A DNA stretch of 64,000 nucleotides from contig CM059432.1 of the NCBI GenBank assembly GCA_030390025.1, forward strand, positions 48,238,001-48,302,000, given 5' to 3'. This stretch comes from Squalus acanthias (lineage: Eukaryota). The first letter of the stretch is position 1. Every line of letters begins with the position of its first letter. The position numbers were made by a program, and so were the translations under genes. The notes under the pieces are model-generated. The model saw only the letters and a list, made by a program, of their open reading frames with translations. It did no database searches and was not told where the DNA came from. Below, in pieces: positions 446 through 58,080 of this stretch.

Positions 446-2727
446 GGTCGCACAACACCAGGTTATAGTCCAACAGTTTTATTTGAAATCACAAGCTTTC
501 GGAGCTTACTACTCCTTCGTCGGGTGAAGTAAAAAGATACAGAATCGCCAAAGCATATATAGATAGAGAACAATGCATGTGTACCTTACAATTGCAGACA
601 ACTAAATTAAATCATCCTGACTATCTGCCGAGGTGTGATAAAGTTAATCAGGTCAGCCAGGAAGGTACCACATCAAAGACATAGCAAGATACAACTGAGA
701 CAATGAGGTGGAGTCGCAGGGGGTCTAACGTGTCAAAAGCTGCCGTCTGTATGTAAAACGATAAGCTTTAGAATTTTTACTTTTTTACTGGGAAAATTTT
801 TACTTTTTTACTGGGAATCACATCTGTGAACAAGCCAACGACGACTCGAGTCCGGATCACGTCATGTATCGTGACATAAACCCAAGATCCCGGTTGAGAC
901 CGTCTTCATGAGTGCGGAACTTGGCTATCAGTTTCTGCTCGATGATTTTGCGTTGTCGTGTGTTCCTAAGGTTGCCTTGGAGAACGCTAACCCGCAGATC
1001 CGAGGCTGAATGTCCTTGACTGCTGAAGTGTTCCCCGACTGGGAGGTAACAATCCTGCCTGGCGATTGTTGCGCAGTGCTCGTTCATACGTTGTCTCAGT
1101 GTCTGCATGGTCTCGCCGATGTACCATGCCGCGGTGCATTTTTTCCTGCAACGTATGAGGTAGACAACGTTGGCCGAGTCACATGAGTATGTACCATGTA
1201 CCTGGTGGGTAGTGTCCTCACGTGTGATGGTGGTATCTGTGTTGATGATCTGGCATGTCTTGCAGAGTTTGCCGTGGCAGGGTTGTGTGGTGTCGTGGTC
1301 GCGGTTATCCTGAAAGCTGGGTAATTTGCTGCGAACGATGGTACTTCTGAGGTTAGGCAGCTGTTTGAAGGCAAGTAGTGGAGGCATGGGGATGGCCTTA
1401 GCGAGGTGTTTGTCGTCATCGATGACATGTTGAAGGCTGCGAAGAACATGGCGTAGTTTCTCCGCTCCGGGGAAGTACTGGACGACGTAGGGTACCCTGT
1501 TGGTTGTGTCCCGTGTTTGCCTTCTGAGGAGGTCTATGCGATTTTTCGCTGTGGCCCGTCGGAACTGTCGATCGATGAGTCGAGCGTCATATCCCGTTCT
1601 TACGAGGGCATTTTTCAGCGTCCGTAGGTGTCCATCGCGTTCCTCCTCATCTGAGCAGATCCTGTGTATTCGCAGGGCTTGTCCATAGGGGATGGCTTCT
1701 TTAACGTGGTTAGGGTGGAAGCTGGAGAAGTGGAGCATCGTGAGGTTGTCCGTGGGCTTGCGGTAGAGTGAAGTGCTGAGGTGTCCGTCTTTGATGGAGA
1801 TTCGTGTGTCCAGGAATGAAACCGATTCTGAGGAGTAGTCCATGGTGAGTTTGATGGTGGGATGGAACTTGTTTATGTTATCGTGTAGTCTTTTCAGTGA
1901 TCCTTCGCCATGGGTCCAAAGGAAGAAAATGTCGTCGATGTATCTGGTGTACAGCGTTGGCTGGAGGTCCTGTGCAGCGAAGAAGTCTTGCTCGAACTTG
2001 TGCATGAAGATGTTGGCGTATTGGGGTGCGAATTTGGTCCCCCTGGCTGTTCCGTGTGTTTGGGTAAAAAAATGGTTGTCGAAGGTGAAGACATTGTGGT
2101 CAAGGATGAAGCGGATGAGTTGTAGGATGGCGTCTGGAGATTGGCTGTTGTTGGTGTTGAGTACTGAGGCTGTCGCAGCGATGCCGTCATCGTGGGGGAT
2201 ACTGGTGTAGAGTGCCGATACGTCCATCGTGGCAAGGAGTGTTCCTGGTTCAACTGGTCCGTGGGTGCTGAGTTTCTGTAAGAAGTCTGTAGTGTCGCGA
2301 CAGAAGCTGGGGGTTCCCTGTACGATGGGTTTCAGAATGCCCTCGACGTATCCAGAGAGGTTCTCACACAGGGTTCCATTGCCTGATACGATAGGACGTC
2401 CGGGTGTGTTGGCTTTGTGTATCTTTGGGAGGCAGTAGAAGTCTCCCACGCAGGGAGTACATGGGATGAGAGCGCGTAGGATGTTTTGAAGGTCTGGATC
2501 GAAGGTCTTGATCAGTCTATTGAGTTGGCGGGTGTGTTCTTTGGTCGGATCTGCGGGTAGCTGTCTGTAGTGTTCCTGGTTATCCAGTTGTCGGTATGCT
2601 TCTTTACAATAGTCCGTTCTGTTCTGTATGATGATGGCTCCTCCTTTGTCCGCTGGTTTGATGACGATGTTGCGGTTGGTCTTGAGAGCGTGGATGGCGT
2701 TGCGTTGTGCTCGGGTGACATTCGGCT
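446..2727 (-). mobile_element. Penelope-like retroelement, 5'-truncated, with 3' UTR/pLTR
   Basis: Open RT + GIY-YIG ORF followed by a ~400-bp 3' region with a hammerhead-like motif and AATAAA (minus strand, ~478-483). Confidence 0.92.
490..526 (-). ncRNA. Minimal (Penelope-type) hammerhead ribozyme motif, core variant CCGACGA
   Basis: Minus strand CAC-CCGACGA-AGGAG-TAGTAAG-CTCC-GAAA-GCTT-GTG: stem I CAC/GTG, stem II GGAG/CTCC, palindromic AGCT stem III, CUU cleavage triplet. Confidence 0.7.
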
Positions 2728-2809
2728 GAAATATCCCATAGCTCCATATCTTGCCCTTCTGCTCACAGCCATGCTTCAGCATTGGCACAAATGCCAACGC
2801 TTTCACCAT
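857..2809 (-). CDS. Penelope polyprotein: reverse transcriptase + C-terminal GIY-YIG endonuclease (first ~27 aa probably read in from flanking DNA)
   Basis: Motifs IKPADKGG, YCLPKIHK, GRPIVSG, MDVSALYTSIPH, YTRYIDDIF, FLDT, YRKPT, then CxxxxCKTC and NVVYLIRC...WYIGET...R...H (GIY-YIG); 650 codons with no stop. Confidence 0.9.
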   Translation of the reverse strand: MVKALAFVPMLKHGCEQKGKIWSYGIFQPNVTRAQRNAIHALKTNRNIVIKPADKGGAIIIQNRTDYCKEAYRQLDNQEHYRQLPADPTKEHTRQLNRLIKTFDPDLQNILRALIPCTPCVGDFYCLPKIHKANTPGRPIVSGNGTLCENLSGYVEGILKPIVQGTPSFCRDTTDFLQKLSTHGPVEPGTLLATMDVSALYTSIPHDDGIAATASVLNTNNSQSPDAILQLIRFILDHNVFTFDNHFFTQTHGTARGTKFAPQYANIFMHKFEQDFFAAQDLQPTLYTRYIDDIFFLWTHGEGSLKRLHDNINKFHPTIKLTMDYSSESVSFLDTRISIKDGHLSTSLYRKPTDNLTMLHFSSFHPNHVKEAIPYGQALRIHRICSDEEERDGHLRTLKNALVRTGYDARLIDRQFRRATAKNRIDLLRRQTRDTTNRVPYVVQYFPGAEKLRHVLRSLQHVIDDDKHLAKAIPMPPLLAFKQLPNLRSTIVRSKLPSFQDNRDHDTTQPCHGKLCKTCQIINTDTTITREDTTHQVHGTYSCDSANVVYLIRCRKKCTAAWYIGETMQTLRQRMNEHCATIARQDCYLPVGEHFSSQGHSASDLRVSVLQGNLRNTRQRKIIEQKLIAKFRTHEDGLNRDLGFMSRYMT

Positions 2810-3661
2810 CTGCGCATACGTCTAAATCCAGAACTTTTATTGCTAATGGGTCTTGTATGAGTATAATACAGTTAAGTTAATCCTTCATCACGTTCTTATT
2901 CCTATTTCATCCTTTTAATTATGCATTTGCATTTCTTTCTTCTCCTGTCTCTTGATCTTCCAGATTTGCTCAGGGTATTACTTTCCTCCCCTTTTCTAAA
3001 TTTAGCTTAAATTAACTCAATTGCTGCTTCATGATTTGTAGCAACAGCTTACTTCTTCCTACGGTTATCCCATCCTTCCTATACAAGACCCTCTAGCCTA
3101 AGAAACTTGCCCGATTATCAACAGTCCCCGTACATATCCTACTAATCATTCATTGAAGTTAATTACCTTGTTCATTCTTTTAATGCGCTCAGTTAACACC
3201 GATAAGAACCCAGATACTGCCATATATATATATATATATACCCACAGTACCTTTATATTTCTCCTTTAGTTCCTCAGACATTCTATCCATGATATAATAC
3301 AATTTGTTGCTGCATATATTGGTACTGGTTTATCGACAGCATCTCTCATTCATGCTAAGTGAATAAAATGTAGTGGGAAAATACACCGTTCACTTAAGAC
3401 TTCACCGTTGTTCCTGACGTCAGTGATTTTTCTGGTGCACATTTTTAGTTGAAATGGGAGATTTTCAAATAACACTAATGACCTTAATGTGTTTTTTTAA
3501 AACTTACGGACTCTGGAATTCCACAGGGTCCATTCTGTGGTCTGCACCATTGAGCCGGGACTGTGCCCACTGACATTCTTCAGCGCTGACCTTGCATTCA
3601 TTGGCAGAGTAAGCTCATTTAAATATCATTTGGAAGTTCAGTAATGCAAATCCCTTGTACT

Positions 3662-4990
3662 CTTTTTTGAATCGACCAATCAAATGTAACTTAACCAAAA
3701 CATTAAAGTAAACTTAACAGCTTAAATTAAAATTTTGTTATTGGGGGTGATGATGCACTCTAGTCCATCCGGTGCCCACCGGTCCCGGAAGGCCTCGAGC
3801 GTGCCGGCGGACACCGCGTGCTCCATCTCCAGGGCCACCCAGGTGCGAACGTGGCCGTGGAAGAGAGGCAGGCAGTTGGGCTGAACGACCCCCTCGACCG
3901 CCCGCTGCCTGGACCAGTTGATGGCCACTTTGGCCGGGCCCAGGAGTAGTCCCACGATCCCCCTCGACCTGCCCGCTCCCCTCCGCCCTGGGTGACCAAA
4001 GATCAGGAGCATGGGACTGAAGTGCAGCCAGAAATCGAGGAGCAGCCCCTTCAAATAATGGAAGAGGGGCTGCAACCTCTCGCACTCCATATAAACGTGG
4101 AACATGGGCTCCTCCAGACCGCAGAAAAGGCAGGCGCCCTGGGAGTCCGTGAACCGACTTAAAACCTTATTGCACGGGATTGCCAAGTCCCCAATAGATA
4201 AAGGGAGGACTCCTGCATGGACAGCCCTCCATTGGGGACCCCCGCCTCCTCCGGACAGCAAGATGGTGCACCAAGGCGTGTCCGTACGGCAGACGAGGAT
4301 GGCAAAATGGAGGGTGTTTAAGAGCAGCCCGTACAGGAAACCGCTCCGTGCAGGATGGAAAGGCACGGAAGGGATTTCCCGGAGAAGGCTCAAGTTGTGA
4401 GGCGCCGGCTCCCGAGAGGGGTTTTGGGGCCGGGCGCCGATGAGGAATTCTGTCCGTCCGGGGGTCAGTTCGGACGGGATCGTCCCACGTGCTTGAGCCT
4501 CCTCGATACACCTAGTGGAGTCGGGGCCCAATGCCACTTTTAGCGACTCGATGGCTCTGGCCGCGAGCCGGACGTCAGCCCAGGACAGGCACTGCGCCAG
4601 CTCCTCCGGTGCCATCCAACCCACTCGTCCGCCATCCAGTAGGTTCCTGACTCTGGTCACCTTGCCAGACACAGCCCTGCCCTCCACCAGCCACTCGAAC
4701 CTGCGGTTGTGGAGGTGCGGATTCCTGAGCAGCGGCTCCTGAAGGACAGCCGCCACTCCTGGCGGGGGAGAACTCCGTCTGCAGGCGACCATGTTCCAGA
4801 CCCTTAGTAGTTCCTGGTAGAAGACAGGCAGCTCCCGCAAGGAGGCACAGGTACCCCTCAGTTTCACAAACAGGAGCTGCGTGTCATAATTGAGGCCGTG
4901 CAGCTAGCGGAAGAAATACATCGCCAGCGCACACCATCTGGGAGGATCCTTGACATACAGGTATCTCTGCAGGGTCTGAAGATGGAAAGT
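3662..4990 (-). mobile_element. Tx1 (L1 clade) LINE 3' fragment
   Basis: ORF 3722-4867 has LPVFYQELLRVW, EPLLRNP and a C-terminal zinc knuckle CLFCG...MFHVYMEC typical of L1/Tx1 ORF2; GC-rich, sharply distinct from the flanks. Confidence 0.8.
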
Positions 4991-6230: not shown

Positions 6231-7779
6231 TGGAAATGCCTTATGCCCAATTTCAAGGCCAGATAAAAATGCCAGATTTTAGGAGCCAGAAATGGCGAAA
6301 ACAACATAGAATTTCGGGGTTAATATATTTAACAAGTTAAGTCGTGCAACAGATTATGAAAATGGAGATTGTACACAGTACTGTGAACATAGTGAAATGT
6401 GTTAAATGGCAATATTGTTTGGAAAATATTGTATTTGGAAATGACAAGTGACAGCAGTTCTGAAATGAGTCAATGGTGTTAAATTCATATCCACTGGGCT
6501 CTGGATTAGGACTGGCCACATACTTCAGCAAATATGTGCTGCGTGGTACACATCTAGCTGTCTTAACACTAAAGCCTGTTTCTACAGCACAGTACAGTCC
6601 AGATGGCAGTACATTATTAAATCAAGAGTTATACTGGGCAGTCTATCATTTTAAGAGATGGTTGGGAGCTACTTGCAGCCGACTGGCATTTTTCTGAAGG
6701 GAATAATCTCTCGCCACTTCACCTTCCGACAGTTGCCATGTAATTGCAATCGGCACAGAGCCAACTTGTTAACCTTTAACATTCAAGTTTAAAAAGAGCC
6801 TGAGCAGTCTTCTGACTGCTCTTAAATTTTTAATGTTACAAAAGAGCAGCCTGCTCCAGTAGCTCTTTTCTAACCTTAGAAATGTTGCTGGCAGCAGAAG
6901 ACTAGGGAGCAGATCTCCTTGTATGCAGTTATGGACAGGGACATGTCGACATAGCTCTGATTTCCCCTAACTAAAGAGGGGGAGGAAAGATATAACTCTG
7001 TGAGTCAACTTACACCACTCCAAAAACATTACTGGTGTCATGTAATAACCTGCACTATAACTGCATCAATAGCCACTTCAGTTCCAGTCTCTGGAAGAAA
7101 AGGAAATTGGATAAATACTTGAAGGGGAAAAAATTGCAAGGATATGAGGAAAGAGTGGGGGAGTGGAACTAACTAGATTGCTCTTCGAAAGAGCCGGCAC
7201 AGACTCGATGGGCCGAATAGCCTCCTTCTGTGCTGTACTATTCTATGATTCTCTGACATGCACTATTCTTACCTTAAGTGAGATTAGAGATTATAATCTA
7301 CAAAAGTGGAAAAAAACTGAGTTAGCTATTCTGAATTTTAGTGATTTATTAGTAAAACACCAGTATACAATTGTGAAGAAACCATTTACTCATTTGACCT
7401 TGAGCATATGCCAAACCTATAACAACGTTGGATCCATTAATCATTGATTCTCAGTTATTTAGCGAGGTTTCCTTTCTAGGAAAGAACAAAACTAATACAC
7501 ATGACAAATACAACATTGATATCAACTAACAATGATCAGGATCCTCACAGCTTCCCCTTGTGTTGATTATTTTTCAACAAATGCCTTTTTATCAAAAAGG
7601 GAAAAGACATCCTTTGTTTGCATTTGTAGAAAAATCTTTATTAACACATTCACAATTTAACTACAAATAGGACACATTAGAAATTACATAAAAATTACAA
7701 CATAAAACAAATCGTTCAGTCCAACCAGTCCTTGTTGGTGTTTAGCCACCACATCAGCAGTAATCCTAATCCTATGTAC

Positions 7780-9439
7780 TGTAAAGTTTCGCAATTATCG
7801 CGATTCGAAATAACATAAGAGAAGCAGATTCGTTTGATCAGTTTTATTAAACGAAATGCTGTCCTGATAATAAAGGACACAGAAGCCTGTAAAATGGCCA
7901 CCGCGCATCGTGGCAGAAGCTTCCAGAAACACAGTGGGCAGACAAGATGGCGTCGAATAAACATTCAGGATAAGATTGGATCATACTCGGTAAACACTGA
8001 TAAAGACAGGATGCAACCCGTTTGCATTTGGAACAATAGCAAAGATATAAGTGCTGGAATCGTTTTCCTATGCACAGTAAGGATCATTGTACTGGGTAAT
8101 CGAAGGCCCATCCAGACACATCAATACACAAATACCCCCCCGGCTCTACAATGAGAGAGACATCGACGGGTGATTAAGCAAGTATTCGGGGGGCCCCAAA
8201 ACCAGTCAGGGAGACGATTCATACACATCCTGGCTGGTTCAACAATGGGGAAAACATTAACGGATAGTTGGCCAGTTTCAGGTGCTACCGAAACCCGTTA
8301 AAGAAGATAACCGCCCCATGCTGGGAGTTTTGAGCGCCAATATTACACAAAGGACAAACATTAAGATTTGAGCGGGAGATAAGCGGACACATCACTATAA
8401 CTATAGAGAACAAATGTCCATCGCTCTCTTATCTCGATGCTGGCTGCTGAACGCTCTTATTCTCTTATTCGCTTGCCTCTTCATGAACTCGCTTGACTTG
8501 TGGGCTCTTGATTTTCTCTCTGGACTTTGTTGACTCTTGACTCTTAGCCGTACTGGTCGGTTATGCGAGTGTTGGGTCGAGCTCAATCGGAACGAGCTGC
8601 CCCGACAAGGGCAAGTAACAGGGTACACCATCCCGAGTGTCGGTAAACGGTGTCTGGACCCGGAGGCCCGAGGAGACGAGACGAGAAGAAGACGAGAAGA
8701 AATTCCACGTGCCGCCACGGTCAGTAAACCCCAACCGCGCCCGAAAATATAAATACAGGACTCTTCTTTGAGTTCTACAGACTACAACCTGTGTCGAACA
8801 CAGGAAGACTCTTCTTTGAATTTTACAAATGTTCCAAGTTCTGTCGAGTTCTTCATGACAACAGGGAGTCTGGCCTGCTTGTCGCAGCAGCGAAAATAAA
8901 CAAGTGGGGTGCAGAGACCCTTCCAAACACGTGACAGTCAGGCGCTGCAGCGAAACGAGCCGAGTGCCTCATTTTAAAAATCTCCGAACTAACACGAGTG
9001 GTGAGCATGTTTTCCGATCCTACAAATCTAGACGTAGTGTAGGTATTGTTACGGGAGGGTGGTTTTTAATAAGGTTAAGGTATAATGTGTTCCCCTTTCT
9101 ACGATGTGCCGTGTGTTCTTCATTTCCATAGACCAAGCTTTATGAATGTATGTATACTTATACTATCTTTGATTTGCGCCTATGACATGTACTTCATGAT
9201 TTTAGACGCCATGCAATAAAGATTTCCATTTCGTACTATTCAACCGAATCTATTTGAGTTTTTCTCTGCATTACTGCTCCTTGCACCTAAGTCCAGTGTT
9301 AGAACCGTAAGGGCGAGTGGGTCGAACCACTCACAGGTGCTTATTGCAAAAAGGCTGGCCGGAGACCAGAGCAAGCAATAGTATAGGCAACGAAGGCCTA
9401 ACCTCGCACCAGCACCATCTGAGACACGTCCCCCTTACA
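7780..9439 (+). mobile_element. Solo LTR, 1660 bp (copy A), inserted in a CR1 3' tail
   Basis: Ends TGTAAAG...CCTTACA; flanks GTAC/GTGC (4-bp TSD, 1 mismatch); TATAAA 8748-8753; AATAAA 9215-9220; homologous over its full length to 10111-11795. Confidence 0.85.
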
Positions 9440-9999
9440 GTGCCCACTTTGTCCCCATATCCCTTTATTCCCCTTTCCATCCACCACCTATCTAACTTAT
9501 TCGTAAATGGTGACACGGGCCTGGAATTTCCTTGGAGCTGCTCCCACTTTGCCACTGTAAATTCACCAGATGTGTGGTGGAAGCTCCATCCACGCACGTC
9601 AACGGGGTTTCCGCTGCATTTGTGGCACATTTACAGTGGTGAAGGGAGAGCATCTGAGGAAATTCCACCTCATGGTTCCTGCTTCAGTCACTAATACTAG
9701 TAGTGCATTCCACATCCTCACAACCCTCTGTGGAAAAAGGCTCCTCCTGCTCGCTGTCCTATATCTCATATTTAATCTTGTATCTATGTCCCCTTGTTCT
9801 AGATCCTTCAACTGCTGCAAGCAGTCTGTTTCTATCGACTCTGTCCCATCCCTTCATGTTAATCAGCTCTATCAAATCACCTCATAATTGTCCCTGTTCC
9901 AATGAAAACAGCCCCAATTTTTCAAGTCTATCTTCATATTTGTATATCCTCATACCAAGCAGAATCTTAATGAATCTGCACTGAACTCTCTATTTTTTA

Positions 10000-12772
10000 A
10001 AATATTCGTTCATGGGATGTGGGCGTCACTGGCAATGCCAGCATTTATTGCCCATCCCTAGTTGCTCTTGAGAAGATGGTGGTGAGCCGCCTTCTTGTAC
10101 CGCTGCAGTCTGTAAGGGGTTTGCTTGCGTCGTGCTTGTATCGCAGACGATGCTGGTACGGGGTTAGGCCTTCGTTGCCTAATACTATTGCTTGCTCTGG
10201 TCTCCGGCCAGCCTTGTTGCAATAAGCACCTGTGAGTGGTTCGACCCACTCGCCCTTACGGTTCTAACACTGGACTTAGGTGCGAGAGCAGTAATGCAGA
10301 GAAAGACTCAAATAGACCCGGTTGAATAGTACGAAATGGAAATCTTTATTGCATAGCGTCTAAAATCATGAAGTACATGTCATAGGCACAAATTAACGAT
10401 AGTACAAGTATACATACATTCATAAAGCTTGGTCTATGGTAATGAAGAACGCACGGCACATCGTAAAAAGGGGAACACATTATACTTTATCCTTAATAAA
10501 ACCACCCTCCCCTATCAATCCCTACACTATATCTAGATTTGTAGGATCGGGAACATGCTCACCACTCGTGATACTTCGGAGGATTTTAAAGTGAGGCACT
10601 CGGCTCGTTCGCTGCAGCGCCCGACTGTCACATGTTTGGAGGGGTCTCTGTAGCCCACTTGTTTATCTTCGCTGCTGGGACAAGCAGGCCAGACCGTCTT
10701 TTGTCATGAGGAACTGTGTAGAACTTGGACACGTTGGTAAAATTCGAAGAAAAGTCTTCCTGTACCAGTTCGTGGAGTAACCGATGGAGTTCGAAAATGG
10801 TCTTTATATTTTATGGCGCGGTCGGGGTTTACTGACCGCGGCGGCACGTGTCTTCTTCTTCTTCTCGTCTCGTCTCCTTTTGTCTCTTCGGGCCTTCGGG
10901 TCCAGACACCGTTTACCGACTCTCGGGATGGTGCACCCGGTCACTTGCCTTTGTCGAGGCGGCTCGTTCCGTTTGAGCTCCACCCAACATTCGAATAACC
11001 GACCAGTACGGTTAAAAGTCAACAATGTCCAGCCCTCAAAAGAGCTTCATCAGTCCGCAGCGGGTCCAAACAAGAGTTCAGCCCGAGTCAAAAGTCAGCA
11101 GCGATAAGGGCGCCAAGGAATATGAGCCGAATCAAGAGAATAAGAGACCGATGGACGTTTGTTCACTATAGTTATAGTGCTGTGTTTTCTTATCTCCCGC
11201 CCAAATCTTAATGTTTGTCCTTTGTGAAATATTGGCGCTCCAAACTCCCAGCATGGGGCGATTCCTGTCTTTAATGGGTTTCGGTAGCACCTGAAACTGG
11301 CCAACTACCCGTTAATGTTTTCCCCATTGTTGACCCAGCCAGGATCGTATGAATCGTCTCCCTGACTGGTTTTGGGGGCCCCCGAATACTTGTTTAATCA
11401 CCCGTCGATGTCTCTCTCATTGTAGAGCCGTGGGGGCATTTGTGTATTGATATGTCTGGATGGGCCTTCGATTGCCCAGTACAATGAACCTTACTTGTGC
11501 ATGGAAAACGATTCCAGCACTCATATCTTATGCTATTGTTTCGAATGCAAACAGGTTGCATCCTGTCTTTATCAGTGTTTGCTGAGTATTATCCAATCTT
11601 ATACTGAAATGTATATTCGACCGCCATCTTGTCTGCCCACTGAAAATTCTGGAAGCTTCTGTCACGATGCGCGGCGGCCATTTTACAGGCTTCTTGTGTC
11701 CTTTTTAATCATGACAGCATTTCGTTTAAATAAACTGATCAAACGAATCTGCTTCTCTCTCGTTATTTTGAATCGTGATAATTGCGAACTTTACAAGTCC
11801 GCGTGGTGAAGGTACTCCCACAGTGCTGTTAGGGAGGGAGTTCCAGGATTTTGACCCAGCGACGATGAAGGAACGGTGATATACTTCCAAGTCAGGATGG
11901 TGTGTGACTTGGAGGTGGCGGTGTTCCCATGCGCCTGCTGCCCTTGTCCTTATTGGTGGTAGAGGTCGCAGGTTTGGGAGGTGCTGCCGAAGAAGCCTTG
12001 GCTAGTTGCTGCAGTGCATCTTGTAGATGGTACACACTGCAGCCATGGTACGCCAGTGGTGGGGGGAGAGAATGTTTAAGGTGGTGGATGGGGTGCCAAT
12101 CAAGCAGGCTGCTTTGTCTTGGATGGTGTCGAGCTTCTAGAGTGTTGGAGCGGCACTCATCCAGGCAAGTGGAGAGTATTCCATCACAGTCCTGACTTGT
12201 GCCTTGTAGATGGTGGAAAGGCTTTGGGGAGTCAGGAGGTGAGACACTCGCTGCAGAATACCCAGCCTCCGACCCGCTCTTGTTGCCACAGTATTTATGT
12301 GGCTGGTCCAGTTAAGTTTCTGGTCAATGATGACCCCCAGGATATTGATGGTGGGGGATTCAGCAATGGTAATGCCGTTGAATGTCAAGGGGCGGTGGTT
12401 AGATGCTCGCTTGTTGGAGATAGTCATTGCCTGGCACTTGTGTGGCGCGAATGTTACCTGCCACTTATCAGCCCAAGCCTGAATGTCGTCCAGGTCTTGC
12501 TGCATGCGGGCATGGACTGCTTCATTATCTGAGGAGTTGTGAATGGCACTGAACACTGTGCAGTCATCAGCAAACATCCCCACTTCTGACCTTATGATGG
12601 AGGGAAGGTCATTGATGAAGCAGCTGAAGATGGTTGGGCCTAAAACACTGCCCTGAGGAACTCCAGCAGCAATGTCCTGTGGCTGTGATGATTGACTCCA
12701 ACCACCACAACCATCTTCCTTTGTGCTAGGTATGACTCCAGCCAGTGGAGAGTTTTTCCCCCGATTCCAATT
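10000..12772 (-). mobile_element. LINE 3' fragment (CR1/L2 group, second family), split by LTR copy B
   Basis: ORF 12137-12583 MFADDCT...WADKWQVTFAPHKCQ...YKAQVRTVMEYSP; same family as 31085-32780 and 57245-63690. Confidence 0.85.
10111..11795 (-). mobile_element. Solo LTR, 1685 bp (copy B), inserted in a LINE 3' end
   Basis: Minus-strand ends TGTAAAG...CCTTACA; perfect TSD AGTC (10107-10110 / 11796-11799); the interrupted LINE is contiguous in the paralogous copy at ~57300-57390. Confidence 0.9.
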
Positions 12773-12779
12773 GCCTCAT

Positions 12780-40761: not shown

Positions 40762-41518
40762 TGTTAGATTCGAATTTGGAGAAACTCTAGACGGAGACGG
40801 AATTGAGGACAAGAACAAAATTTATTAAAACAACTAAGAGAGACTTGTGCACAAGGGGAGCCACCCAGCTTCCTCAAGCTTGAGGTGTACTCACAAAGGA
40901 AAAACAGCGGTTCATTCAAGATATACAGTTCTATAATCAACGCCCGCTTACTACAGAATGGGGGCATACACATACAAACAACGTCACCACAGTTACTCTT
41001 TATTGGTTTCGGTGTTTAGTCACTCAACTGTTGGGCCCATCCCCTGAACTCAGGTGCCCCTCCCCTGCCCATGCTGGACACAGATGTTGGGAGTAACCCT
41101 ACCTCCACATTCCTGTTGTTATCTCTTCCTCACTATAAGCATAGTTTATTGTTCGAGAGGACCGGTTTTACCCTTCACTGCCGACCAAGCACAAAGCCAC
41201 AGTGATTCATGTGTCCAGCGAACTCGTACCATGTTTGATAATTGGTTCCCTTTTCTCCTGGGAGGACAGGCCGTGCTTGGACAGTGACTCCACTAAGGCG
41301 CTGTGAATACACATCCCGAAGTTTTAATTAGTGAAGAGATGCCTTGCAGCCTGCAAAAGTGCCTGTTCCTTGCATTTTACGATCCCCTTATCACTTTTAC
41401 TGGTCTCTGATGTTCGATATTCGACCTCGCTTACATCCCTGCTATCTGTTCCCAGCTGCATGTTGTCAGTCTCCATTTTAATTAAGCCCCATCTTTGAAT
41501 CTACAGCTATTCCTTACA
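40762..41518 (-). mobile_element. Solo LTR of another family (~757 bp; may extend to ~41692)
   Basis: Minus ends TGTAAGG...CTAACA, TSD AGTG/AGTG, AATAAA near the 3' end (40821-40826); the right boundary overlaps an ~88-bp tandem duplication. Confidence 0.6.
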
Positions 41519-41682
41519 AGTGCCTTTTTTATGAGGGTTAAGCATAGTCAAATATCCCAGAATTCTTTGGGAACAAGCTGAACCTTTCAGTGAGCTATTT
41601 CTTACAGTTACCTTCTTTGGGAGGGTTAAACCTAGCCAAGTATCCCAGAATTCTTTGGGAACTAGCTGGATCCTTCAAGTGC
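41505..41682. repeat. Two-copy ~88-bp tandem repeat
   Basis: AGCTATT.CTTACA...GAGGGTTAA...TATCCCAGAATTCTTTGGGAAC.AGCTG occurs twice in tandem. Confidence 0.75.
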
Positions 41683-56560: not shown

Positions 56561-58080
56561 ATTGTCACTATATTGCAAATCACCTCCCTCATGATGCCCT
56601 CAAAGTTATTTAATCATGTCTGGCTAAATTTATCATTAGAACTGAGGGTCCGTTCCTAGCCACATAATCGTCCAACTCCTCTTTAAAGGAGTTCATTGAT
56701 TTAGCATTAACTTTGATGGAAATCTATTCCATGCATCAATCAATCTGTAAGAAAAAAAGCTGTAGCACAATTTAATGCACTTGTGTTAACATGATGTGTA
56801 AGATTTCAATGTTTCATTGATTTTAAATCCACAACATCCATCTTTTAAGGATGCACATCAGGAGGTGGCACATTAGGAATTAGACGCAGTTGAAGTGTCT
56901 ATTCAAGAGAGTATTTCTCAGCTACCACAACAGTTTGAGACAAGGAGATTCATTAAACACCTGAGAGGAAATTGAGTGATATGCTGGGCTTCATTCATGT
57001 GAGTTCAACAGAGGATGCTTCCAGGGAACCTTACACCTTGGAGGGCAGTTTGATTGGGAGTTCAACTGGCCAATCCTTGGACACAGAGCTGAGAGAACTT
57101 CAGAGGTCAAGACTTTGCCTTCCTGATCAACTAAAAGAAACATGGTCTGCGATCCTTGGTAAAGAAGTCACGCCAAGAGAGAGAAAGCTCGCTTCTTAAA
57201 CTTAGTACTGACCAGTTTCAGAGAGATTACTAGTCAGAAAAGTTTTCTTTTATTCATTTCTGGGCTGTGGGTGTCGCTGGCAAGGCCAACATTTATTGCC
57301 CATCCCTAATTGCACTTGAGAAGGTGGTGGTGAGCCGCCTTCTTGAACTGCTGCAGTTCACGTGGTGAAGGTACTCCCACAGTGCTGTTAGGTCAGGAGT
57401 TCCAGGATTTTGACTCAGCGATGATGAAGGAACAGCGATATATTTCCAAGTCAGGATGGTGTGGAACTTGGAGAGGAACTTGGAGGTGGTGGTGTTCCCA
57501 TGCGCCTGCTGCCCTTGTCCTTCTAGGTGGTAGAGGTCGCAGGTTTGGGAGGTGCTGCCGAAGAAGCCTTGGCAAGTTGCTGCAGTGCATCTTGTAGATG
57601 GTACACACTGCTGCCACGGTGTGCCGGTGGTGGAGGGAGTGAATGTTTAAGGTGGTGGATGGGGTGCCAGTCAAACGGGTTTCTTTGTCCTGGATGGTGC
57701 GAAGCTTCTTAAGTGTTGTTGGAGCTGCACTCATCAGGCAAGTGGAGAGTATTCCATCACATTCCTGACTGGTGCCTTGGAGATGGTGGAAATACTTTGG
57801 GGAAGTCAGGAAGTGAAACACTCGCCGCAGAATACCCAGCCTCTGGCCTGCTCTTGTAGCCACAGTATTTATGTGGCTGGTCCAGTTAAGTTTCTTGTCA
57901 ATGGTGACCCCCAGGATGTTGATGGTGGGGGATTTGGCGATAGTAATGCTGCTGAATGTCATGGGGCGGGGGTTAGACTCTCGCTTGTTGGAGATGGTCA
58001 TTGCCTGGCATTTCTGTGGCGCAAATGTTACTTGCCACTTATCAGCCCAAGCCTGAATGTCGTCCAGGACTTGCTGCATT

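What the first reader, a model, noticed from the sequence alone, without database searches (positions are those of the whole stretch)
7780..11795. Two exceptionally long solo LTRs of one family inserted as a ~4-kb inverted pair
Seen: 7780-9439 and 11795-10111 are homologous over their whole length, both end TGTAA...TTACA, each has its own 4-bp TSD (GTAC/GTGC; AGTC/AGTC), and each interrupts a different LINE. TATA and AATAAA are conserved, implying ~1 kb U3, ~0.45 kb R and ~0.2 kb U5. Known: most vertebrate ERV LTRs are much shorter; LTRs this long with 4-bp TSDs occur in spumaviruses and some Gypsy elements. Inference: solo LTRs of a possibly undescribed complex retrovirus or LTR element of cartilaginous fish. 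Two independent hits 0.67 kb apart suggest a hotspot or local re-insertion, and the convergent promoters could yield a long dsRNA hairpin.
Basis: partly seen in the sequence, partly recalled or inferred. Interest (0 to 1): 0.75.

Follow-up and report, generated by a model that had tools for sequence, protein, structure and literature searches.

The report
Chance pair of shark-retrovirus solo LTRs
These are two separately inserted leftover end-repeats of a very abundant endogenous retrovirus of a probable shark or ray, and they most likely lie close together by chance; the virus itself, whose envelope is predicted to fold like the fusion protein of measles-type viruses, is the more interesting part.

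Summary
Observation confirmed: two 1.66-1.69 kb solo LTRs (85.9% identical), convergent, 671 bp apart, each with its own 4-bp target duplication and each splitting a LINE. The genome holds at least 7,531 such LTRs and at least 355 interiors. The two copies fall in different subfamilies, so this is not local re-insertion. Similar inverted pairs recur elsewhere; about 3 convergent pairs this close are expected from random placement alone. Two-LTR proviruses (12.6-13.4 kb) carry a tRNA-Arg(TCG) primer site, gag-TGA-pol in one frame with tether plus RNase H, and an envelope predicted to be F-type with an Ig-like head, homologous to snakehead retrovirus (SnRV) Env. Reverse transcriptase lies inside Retroviridae, unresolved near the base. 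Lokiretrovirus and class I placements are rejected, Gypsy is excluded, and foamy features are missing. Best filed as an SnRV-related (class III/Huo-grade) endogenous retrovirus with unusually long LTRs. The hairpin would need read-through transcription, which is not shown. The scan had already noted what is probably this family elsewhere in this genome. The pair is ordinary; the family is moderately interesting.

The parts
7780..9439 (+). Solo LTR copy A (subfamily A), 1,660 bp, TG...CA
7776..7779 (.). Left target-site duplication of A (GTAC)
9440..9443 (.). Right target-site duplication of A (GTGC, one mismatch)
8396..8400 (+). Candidate TATA box 1 of A (TATAA; present in 54 of 55 copies); would give U3 of ~0.65 kb and R of ~0.8 kb (inferred)
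8748..8753 (+).
9215..9220 (+). Poly(A) signal AATAAA of A (present in 54 of 55 copies)
10111..11795 (-). Solo LTR copy B (subfamily B), 1,685 bp, TG...CA
10107..10110 (.). Target-site duplication of B, inner side (AGTC)
11796..11799 (.). Target-site duplication of B, outer side (AGTC)
11172..11176 (-). Candidate TATA box 1 of B
10345..10350 (-). Poly(A) signal AATAAA of B
7682..9995 (-). Old LINE 3' part (CR1-like by a recalled ORF2 motif) split by LTR A; approximate limits
10003..12776 (-). Second LINE, with an RT remnant at 12775-12140, split by LTR B; an unbroken relative lies at 57251-58079
9440..10110 (.). 671-bp spacer between the two LTRs, made of LINE fragments

Best explanation
Both repeats are solo LTRs of one very abundant endogenous retrovirus family, left by two separate integrations of different subfamilies into old LINEs, and their inverted closeness is most likely chance. 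Shown: the ends, the 4-bp duplications, the split LINEs, the copy counts, the subfamily split, and two-LTR proviruses with an 18-nt primer site matching a host tRNA-Arg(TCG), a purine tract, gag-TGA-pol in one frame and an env gene. Inferred: each provirus lost its interior by LTR-LTR recombination, keeping one LTR between the duplicated 4 bp. Pol would be made by read-through of the UGA-CUA stop. The Env is predicted to be an F-type (class Ib) fusion protein whose Ig-like N-terminal domain probably binds the receptor. The family is a basal, SnRV-related (class III / Huo-grade) retrovirus of cartilaginous fish with LTRs about three times as long as SnRV's. The pair is probably inert; a fold-back RNA would arise only from a transcript that reads through A's or B's poly(A) signal.
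For: Copy number: 7,531 exact matches to one LTR 21-mer, control 0; 355 matches to the gag-pol junction. TSDs: 37 of 42 solo copies with clean ends have a perfect 4-bp duplication, none 5 bp (31 of 36 distinct sites); length 1,593-1,736 bp. Subfamilies: A's nearest copy is K2P 0.028 away on another contig, B's 0.044, A to B 0.147, in separate starred clades. Chance: uniform placement gives ~10 neighbours within 671 bp, ~2.6 convergent. Among the first 100 hits on C1, 3 of 99 intervals are opposite-strand pairs under 5 kb; one is a convergent pair with a ~750-bp gap and unrelated flanks (L072), one nested, one divergent. Interior: PR, RT, tether-type RNase H, RNase H and IN; primer site complementary to a genomic tRNA-Arg(TCG); TGA at the junction in 98 of the first 100 listed copies. 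RT tree: inside the retrovirus node at 100/99, Loki-type rows outside; AU rejects Loki (p=0.011) and class I (p=0.001). Env: Foldseek best hit hPIV3 F, E=3.6e-11; VIA Z 11.8 to NDV F (rmsd 18.9, 358 aligned), 9.2 to RSV F (rmsd 5.5, 286 aligned), 8.6 to foamy Env (rmsd 9.7, 272 aligned); profile match to SnRV Env, probability 95.4, E=1.7e-8. SnRV also has gag-stop-pol in one frame.
Against: Close pairs on C1 exceed the uniform expectation (4 observed under 5 kb against 0.86), so some regional clustering exists. SnRV is not resolved as sister: RT-tether identity is only 36% against ~50% for frog and coelacanth elements, and the AU test is neutral (p=0.18). A foamy sister position is not rejected either (p=0.088). 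The quick tree's 95* clade with frog/coelacanth elements dissolved in the careful tree. The Env model has mean pLDDT 64.3 and pTM 0.44; the Ig-like head matches only at Z 5.3-5.8 in a low-confidence region; single-sequence BLASTP to SnRV Env is not significant. Read-through, promoter position and expression are untested.
Confidence: 0.85

Rival explanations
1. The pair marks an insertion hotspot or a local re-insertion, with one copy derived from or targeted next to the other.
For: Gap of only 671 bp; 4 of 99 C1 intervals under 5 kb against 0.86 expected, and one copy nested in another.
Against: A and B are K2P 0.147 apart and each has much closer relatives on other contigs; the partner ranks 50th and 45th of 54. 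No third copy in the window or in 10 kb on either side. About 2.6 convergent pairs this close are expected genome-wide without any targeting.
Confidence: 0.08
2. The inverted pair is functional: it yields a long dsRNA hairpin that feeds small-RNA or A-to-I editing pathways and silences the family.
For: A + strand RNA over 9050-10500 folds into a long stem, MFE -822.8 kcal/mol, with no shuffle control at that length. An earlier AI note reports A-to-G hypermutated LTRs of a provirus in this genome (unchecked).
Against: Each LTR's poly(A) signal lies before its inner end, and both LTR-driven RNAs would be LTR-sense. Any inverted repeat folds this way, and on the C1 rate such pairs would number in the hundreds (extrapolated). 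Private changes show no A-to-G excess: A 0 of 12; B 3 A>G and 5 T>C of 27, though that speaks only to editing before integration.
Confidence: 0.07
3. The family is a lokiretrovirus, which would be the first from cartilaginous fish.
For: Dual RNase H, F-type Env, long LTR and a spacer before the primer site as in the published Loki-Bsp consensus (about 1.75 kb by my line count). Wang and Han found Loki in 0 of 6 chondrichthyan genomes.
Against: RT has LPQG/QYVDD rather than the CPFG/IYVDD of the published Loki rows. It falls inside the retrovirus node at 100/99 and AU p=0.011 rejects the union.
Confidence: 0.03
4. The family is a foamy-like (spuma) ERV or an env-bearing Gypsy element.
For: Long LTR and 4-bp TSD; Env shares the foamy/F fold; the AU test does not reject a foamy sister position (p=0.088).
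Against: gag and pol share one frame across a stop codon; primer site for tRNA-Arg; CCHC-type motif in Gag (weak); no ORF room after env and no conserved LTR ORF; Gypsy rows lie outside two fully supported nodes.
Confidence: 0.05

Closest known systems
Snakehead retrovirus (SnRV) and SnRV-like / clade Huo / class III ERVs, including CmiERV lineage I of elephant shark (PMC4422223, part 1 of 2 read; PMC6001957, PMC4977317 and PMC12193657, passages)
   Same: gag-stop-pol in one frame; homologous Env by profile (E=1.7e-8); U5 ending in TTACA; PR-RT-RH 32% identical over 786 aa; SnRV's primer site looks like a tRNA-Arg type (identity recalled, not tested); SnRV-related ERVs are already known from a cartilaginous fish.
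   Different: LTR 1.66 kb against 518 bp; stop context UGA-CUA against UAG-GGC; 5-nt against 1-nt spacer before the primer site; no 3' ORF; shorter Env (~780 aa); RT not resolved as SnRV's sister and closer to unnamed frog and coelacanth elements (~50%).
Lokiretroviruses (Wang and Han 2020, PMC7947760; parts 1-3 of 4 of the text and supplement parts 1, 8 and 68 plus searches read)
   Same: gag-pol-env with tether plus RNase H; F-like Env with an RxxR-type cleavage site; long LTRs in at least one published consensus.
   Different: RT motifs and tree position (AU p=0.011); Ig-like N-terminal Env domain predicted here; none reported in 6 chondrichthyan genomes.
Foamy viruses (Spumaretrovirinae; Env structure PMC11468914, passages read)
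   Same: Class Ib / F-type Env fold; long LTR; 4-bp TSD (the foamy values are recalled).
   Different: In-frame gag-stop-pol, tRNA-Arg primer site, zinc-knuckle motif, no tas/bet-like ORFs; the extra Env domain sits at the N terminus rather than inserted.
Close inverted pairs of any abundant repeat, such as inverted Alu pairs (recalled)
   Same: Independent insertions that happen to lie close and opposite, able to fold back if co-transcribed.
   Different: Here the arms are 1.7-kb LTRs with their own promoter and poly(A) signals.

Membership tests
Solo LTR of an ERV | TG...CA ends, short TSD, no primer site or purine tract beside it, two-LTR proviruses of the same family elsewhere | tested here: met
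Retroviridae (excluding Loki) | RT inside the retrovirus clade; tether plus RNase H; env | tested here: met
   node 100/99; Pfam domains; Env
SnRV-like / Huo / class III ERV | RT forms a clade with SnRV | tested here: inconclusive
   unresolved in the careful tree; AU p=0.18
SnRV-like / Huo / class III ERV | gag and pol in one frame across a stop codon | tested here: met
   the codon differs (TGA against TAG)
SnRV-like / Huo / class III ERV | Env homologous to SnRV Env | tested here: met
   HHalign probability 95.4, E=1.7e-8; single-sequence BLASTP not significant
SnRV itself (complex genome) | 3' ORF and accessory ORFs; 518-bp LTR | tested here: not met
   ~0.4 kb from env stop to LTR in 2 of 2 copies printed; best shared LTR ORF ends in 28 of 55 copies, antisense and running off the end; short spliced ORFs not tested
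Lokiretrovirus | RT in the Loki clade, sister to other retroviruses | tested here: not met
   Loki represented by two eel proteins assigned by motif match to the supplement
Lokiretrovirus | Dual RNase H and F-like Env | tested here: met
Spumaretrovirinae | RT in the foamy clade | tested here: inconclusive
   separate in both trees, AU p=0.088; only mammalian-type foamy genomes were available
Spumaretrovirinae | Separately expressed pol, tRNA-Lys primer, Gag without Cys-His box, tas/bet (features recalled) | tested here: not met
Ty3/Gypsy (Metaviridae) | RT in Gypsy clades, single RNase H | tested here: not met
Class I (gamma/epsilon) ERV | RT in the gamma/epsilon clade | tested here: not met
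   AU p=0.001
A named Dfam/Repbase family (e.g. ERV4) | Nucleotide match to a curated entry | not testable with these tools
   no repeat library is held; PMC4455052 passages only list ERV4 as a group

The most novel reading that the evidence does not exclude
The LTRs belong to an unnamed, near-basal retrovirus lineage of sharks and rays, with relatives in frogs and coelacanth. It combines an ordinary retroviral polymerase with an F-type envelope carrying an Ig-like head, homologous to SnRV Env, and reads through gag by an alphavirus-type UGA-CUA signal that a 2026 review does not list for retroviruses. With foamy and Loki Env, this would make the F-type fusogen the ancestral retroviral envelope.
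Probability: 0.45. Interest if true: 0.62.

Novelty: new member of a known kind. Interest (0 to 1): 0.3.

Why it matters
The pair itself matters little: it is one of many close inverted pairs of a family with thousands of copies. The family matters more. Wang and Han (PMC7947760) left open whether the ancestor of retroviruses had an F-type envelope, and foamy Env was later shown to have that fold (PMC11468914). An F-type Env in a lineage with an ordinary retroviral RT, homologous to SnRV Env, favours an F-type ancestor. At roughly 12 Mb of LTR DNA (7,531 x 1.66 kb, a lower bound), the family is also far more abundant than the 100-700 ERV insertions quoted for elephant shark (PMC4977317) and is a large supply of CpG-rich promoter sequence.

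Tried and rejected
Lokiretrovirus was my first guess from the gene layout; RT motifs and the AU test rejected it. Pfam found no family for the Env (one relative hit Baculo_F at E=0.0011), PDB sequence searches gave nothing significant, the ESM Atlas gave one unnamed cluster at 0.84, and the single-sequence fold was unusable (pLDDT 33). No conserved LTR-encoded ORF was found. No RNA holder is on record in the run search. The guessed-RNA runs are contigs and showed neither start sites nor usable splice joints, so they are not evidence on expression. SnRV Env was not among the 50 BFVD rows shown, which excludes nothing. The exact primer-site motif was not found in the CmiERV supplement (line breaks could hide it), so identity with CmiERV lineage I was not tested by alignment. 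Paper searches: 'lokiretrovirus' 15 papers; Loki + endogenous retrovirus + cartilaginous fish 0; foamy-like/shark 36. None of the listings or passages seen described this family; most subscription papers, bioRxiv supplements and Dfam/Repbase were not searchable. Rows left out: 5 of 60 LTR loci lacked clean ends; the careful tree used 23 of the 45 rows.
Full report
Observation. Both repeats are at the stated coordinates. A (7780-9439, +) and B (11795-10111, -) start TGTAA and end TTACA and are flanked by GTAC/GTGC and AGTC/AGTC. They align over their whole length at 85.9%, with two poorly aligning internal patches. B interrupts a LINE that is continuous at 57251-58079 of the window. A's flanks are adjacent in 10 of 14 other loci of a second LINE. 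The rest of the window is mostly LINE remnants.

The family. A search of the own genome (3.7 Gb) gave 5,144 candidates for A and 6,277 for B, of which 40 each were scored. One exact LTR 21-mer occurs 7,531 times, control 0, and the gag-pol junction pattern 355 times; both are lower bounds, so most copies are solo. Of 60 fetched LTR loci, 55 had clean ends (1,593-1,736 bp, median 1,660). Thirteen were proviral ends and 42 solo. Of the 42, 37 have a perfect 4-bp duplication and none a 5-bp one; seven share one duplicated flank, leaving 31 of 36 distinct sites. The LTRs keep their CpG (observed/expected 0.91 and 0.97 against 0.40 in the rest of the window).

Is the pair special? A and B are K2P 0.147 apart and sit in different starred clades. 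A's nearest copy is 0.028 away and B's 0.044, both on other contigs, so neither came from the other. No further copy lies in the window or in 10 kb on either side. Uniform placement of 7,531 copies predicts about 10 neighbours within 671 bp, 2.6 of them convergent. Among the first 100 listed hits on C1, 4 of 99 intervals are under 5 kb (0.86 expected) and 3 are opposite-strand. I fetched those three: L072 is an unrelated convergent pair with a ~750-bp gap, L073 a copy nested in another, and L074 a divergent pair. Mild regional clustering plus abundance explains the window.

Hairpin. An RNA crossing the gap would fold into a long stem (MFE -822.8 kcal/mol for 9050-10500, no shuffle control). 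But each LTR has its poly(A) signal before its inner end, and RNAs started in either LTR would both be LTR-sense, so only read-through or a host transcript could form the duplex. No RNA data here can show that. Private substitutions show no A-to-G excess.

LTR anatomy. AATAAA at A 9215 is in 54 of 55 copies. I favour U3 ~0.65 kb, R ~0.8 kb and U5 ~0.2 kb, but this is inference. No ORF is conserved across copies.

Proviruses. Same-strand LTR pairs enclose 12.6-13.4 kb elements on C1125, C13, C20, C2561 and C29. After the 5' LTR come 5 nt and an 18-nt primer site complementary to a tRNA-Arg(TCG) gene found in this genome plus CCA. A purine tract precedes the 3' LTR. Gag has a weak zinc-knuckle hit (E=0.0026, below the curated cut-off), and Pol has protease, RT, a tether-type RNase H, RNase H and integrase. 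gag and pol are in one frame across TGA-CTA in 5 of 5 junctions printed, and 98 of the first 100 listed junctions have TGA (the CTA was fixed by my pattern). A 2026 review (PMC13517186, passages) lists UGA-CUA for alphaviruses and, for retroviruses, UAG contexts plus UGAAGA, UGACGA and UGAAGU. All six interiors examined carry at least one broken gene. 5'/3' LTR distances are 0.016-0.046. That is 4-10 My at the mammalian rate used in PMC7947760, 16-46 My at the rate in PMC10699275 and 36-104 My at the rate in PMC4422223, so the age is open.

Env. The ~780-aa ORF has a signal peptide, an RQRR site and a C-terminal membrane helix (read from the sequence). It has 49 relatives at E<=0.001; named ones come from skate (77%), sawshark (74%, 61%), other sharks and frogs, which is the basis for calling the host a cartilaginous fish. 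An alignment-based model (43 rows, pLDDT 64.3) matches paramyxo- and pneumovirus F (E=3.6e-11, Z 11.8 to NDV F, 9.2 to RSV F at rmsd 5.5) and foamy Env (Z 8.6). Residues 16-160 match Ig folds weakly (Z 5.3-5.8). The family profile matches SnRV Env (probability 95.4, E=1.7e-8); SnRV was fetched as L078 and identified by its RT matching the SnRV row of the supplement. Walleye epsilonretrovirus Envs also appear among the BFVD hits.

Placement. The nearest Pol relatives are unnamed frog and coelacanth proteins at ~50%. In the careful tree of 23 rows the element lies inside Retroviridae (100/99), with Loki-type rows and Gypsy outside, and is unresolved at the base. AU tests reject union with Loki (p=0.011) and with class I (p=0.001) but not with foamy (p=0.088) or SnRV (p=0.18). 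Genome features side with SnRV and against foamy viruses. It works like an SnRV-type retrovirus; strict membership of an SnRV clade is not shown. That the frog Env and frog Pol relatives belong to the same elements was not tested.

What is known. SnRV-related ERVs in elephant shark (PMC4422223, part 1 of 2 read) and clade Huo in all major vertebrate lineages (PMC6001957, passages) are published. Wang and Han found no Loki in 6 chondrichthyan genomes (supplement). My searches showed no description of this family, but Dfam, Repbase and most subscription papers were out of reach. After my own analysis, the scan's index returned several unchecked AI notes on what is probably the same family elsewhere in this genome; nothing was indexed by sequence or near this place, nor for the read-through words.

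Verdict. The feature is real. The pair is an ordinary by-product of a very abundant ERV family. The family is a new member of a known kind, with some unusual traits. Interest 0.3.

Noticed in passing
G000:C26:38996704-42214859 (L039-L041): Long tandem arrays with a ~1,623-bp period carrying tRNA-Arg(TCG) and tRNA-Ser(GCT) genes; 427 matches of the tRNA-Arg 3' pattern genome-wide. This is the primer tRNA of the ERV family.
   Followed up: partly
L035, L037 and L075, just after the 5' LTR; L078:75-105: The primer site is 5 nt from the LTR's terminal CA, against 1 nt in SnRV and 2 nt on the purine-tract side, which would imply asymmetric end trimming by integrase (inferred).
   Followed up: no
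G000:C13:72622728-72647510 (L005-L007, L035-L037): Three LTRs in a row: two 5' LTRs share the same upstream flank (K2P 0.003), pointing to a tandem duplication of a provirus with its flank or an assembly duplication.
   Followed up: partly
L017, L021-L024, L026, L028 (also L025, L027, L029): Many near-identical copies on small contigs share one insertion site (AATC flank), some solo and some proviral, which suggests an amplified larger repeat unit.
   Followed up: no
G000:C1:35293500-35301500 (L073): One LTR nested inside another, which is inserted in the same LINE family as copy B, about 550 bp from B's site.
   Followed up: partly
BFVD ranks 6 and 8: Walleye epidermal hyperplasia and dermal sarcoma virus Envs score as structural matches to this F-type Env (E 1.9e-11 and 1.1e-10; TM-scores low, 0.24 and 0.12), hinting that exogenous epsilonretrovirus Env is also F-type.
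   Followed up: no
G000:C9:80705565, C2:57536392, C20:19625323, C3:60106215, C9:22920447: Five LTR matches break at the same point (query ~1305-1308), three with the rest resuming ~700 bp on: a sub-lineage with a shared insertion inside the LTR.
   Followed up: no
window 860-2821 and 3725-4903 (- strand): Long open frames (654 and 393 aa) of other non-LTR or Penelope-like retroelements (type guessed from the translation only).
   Followed up: no
window 41505-41677: An ~88-bp head-to-tail duplication.
   Followed up: no
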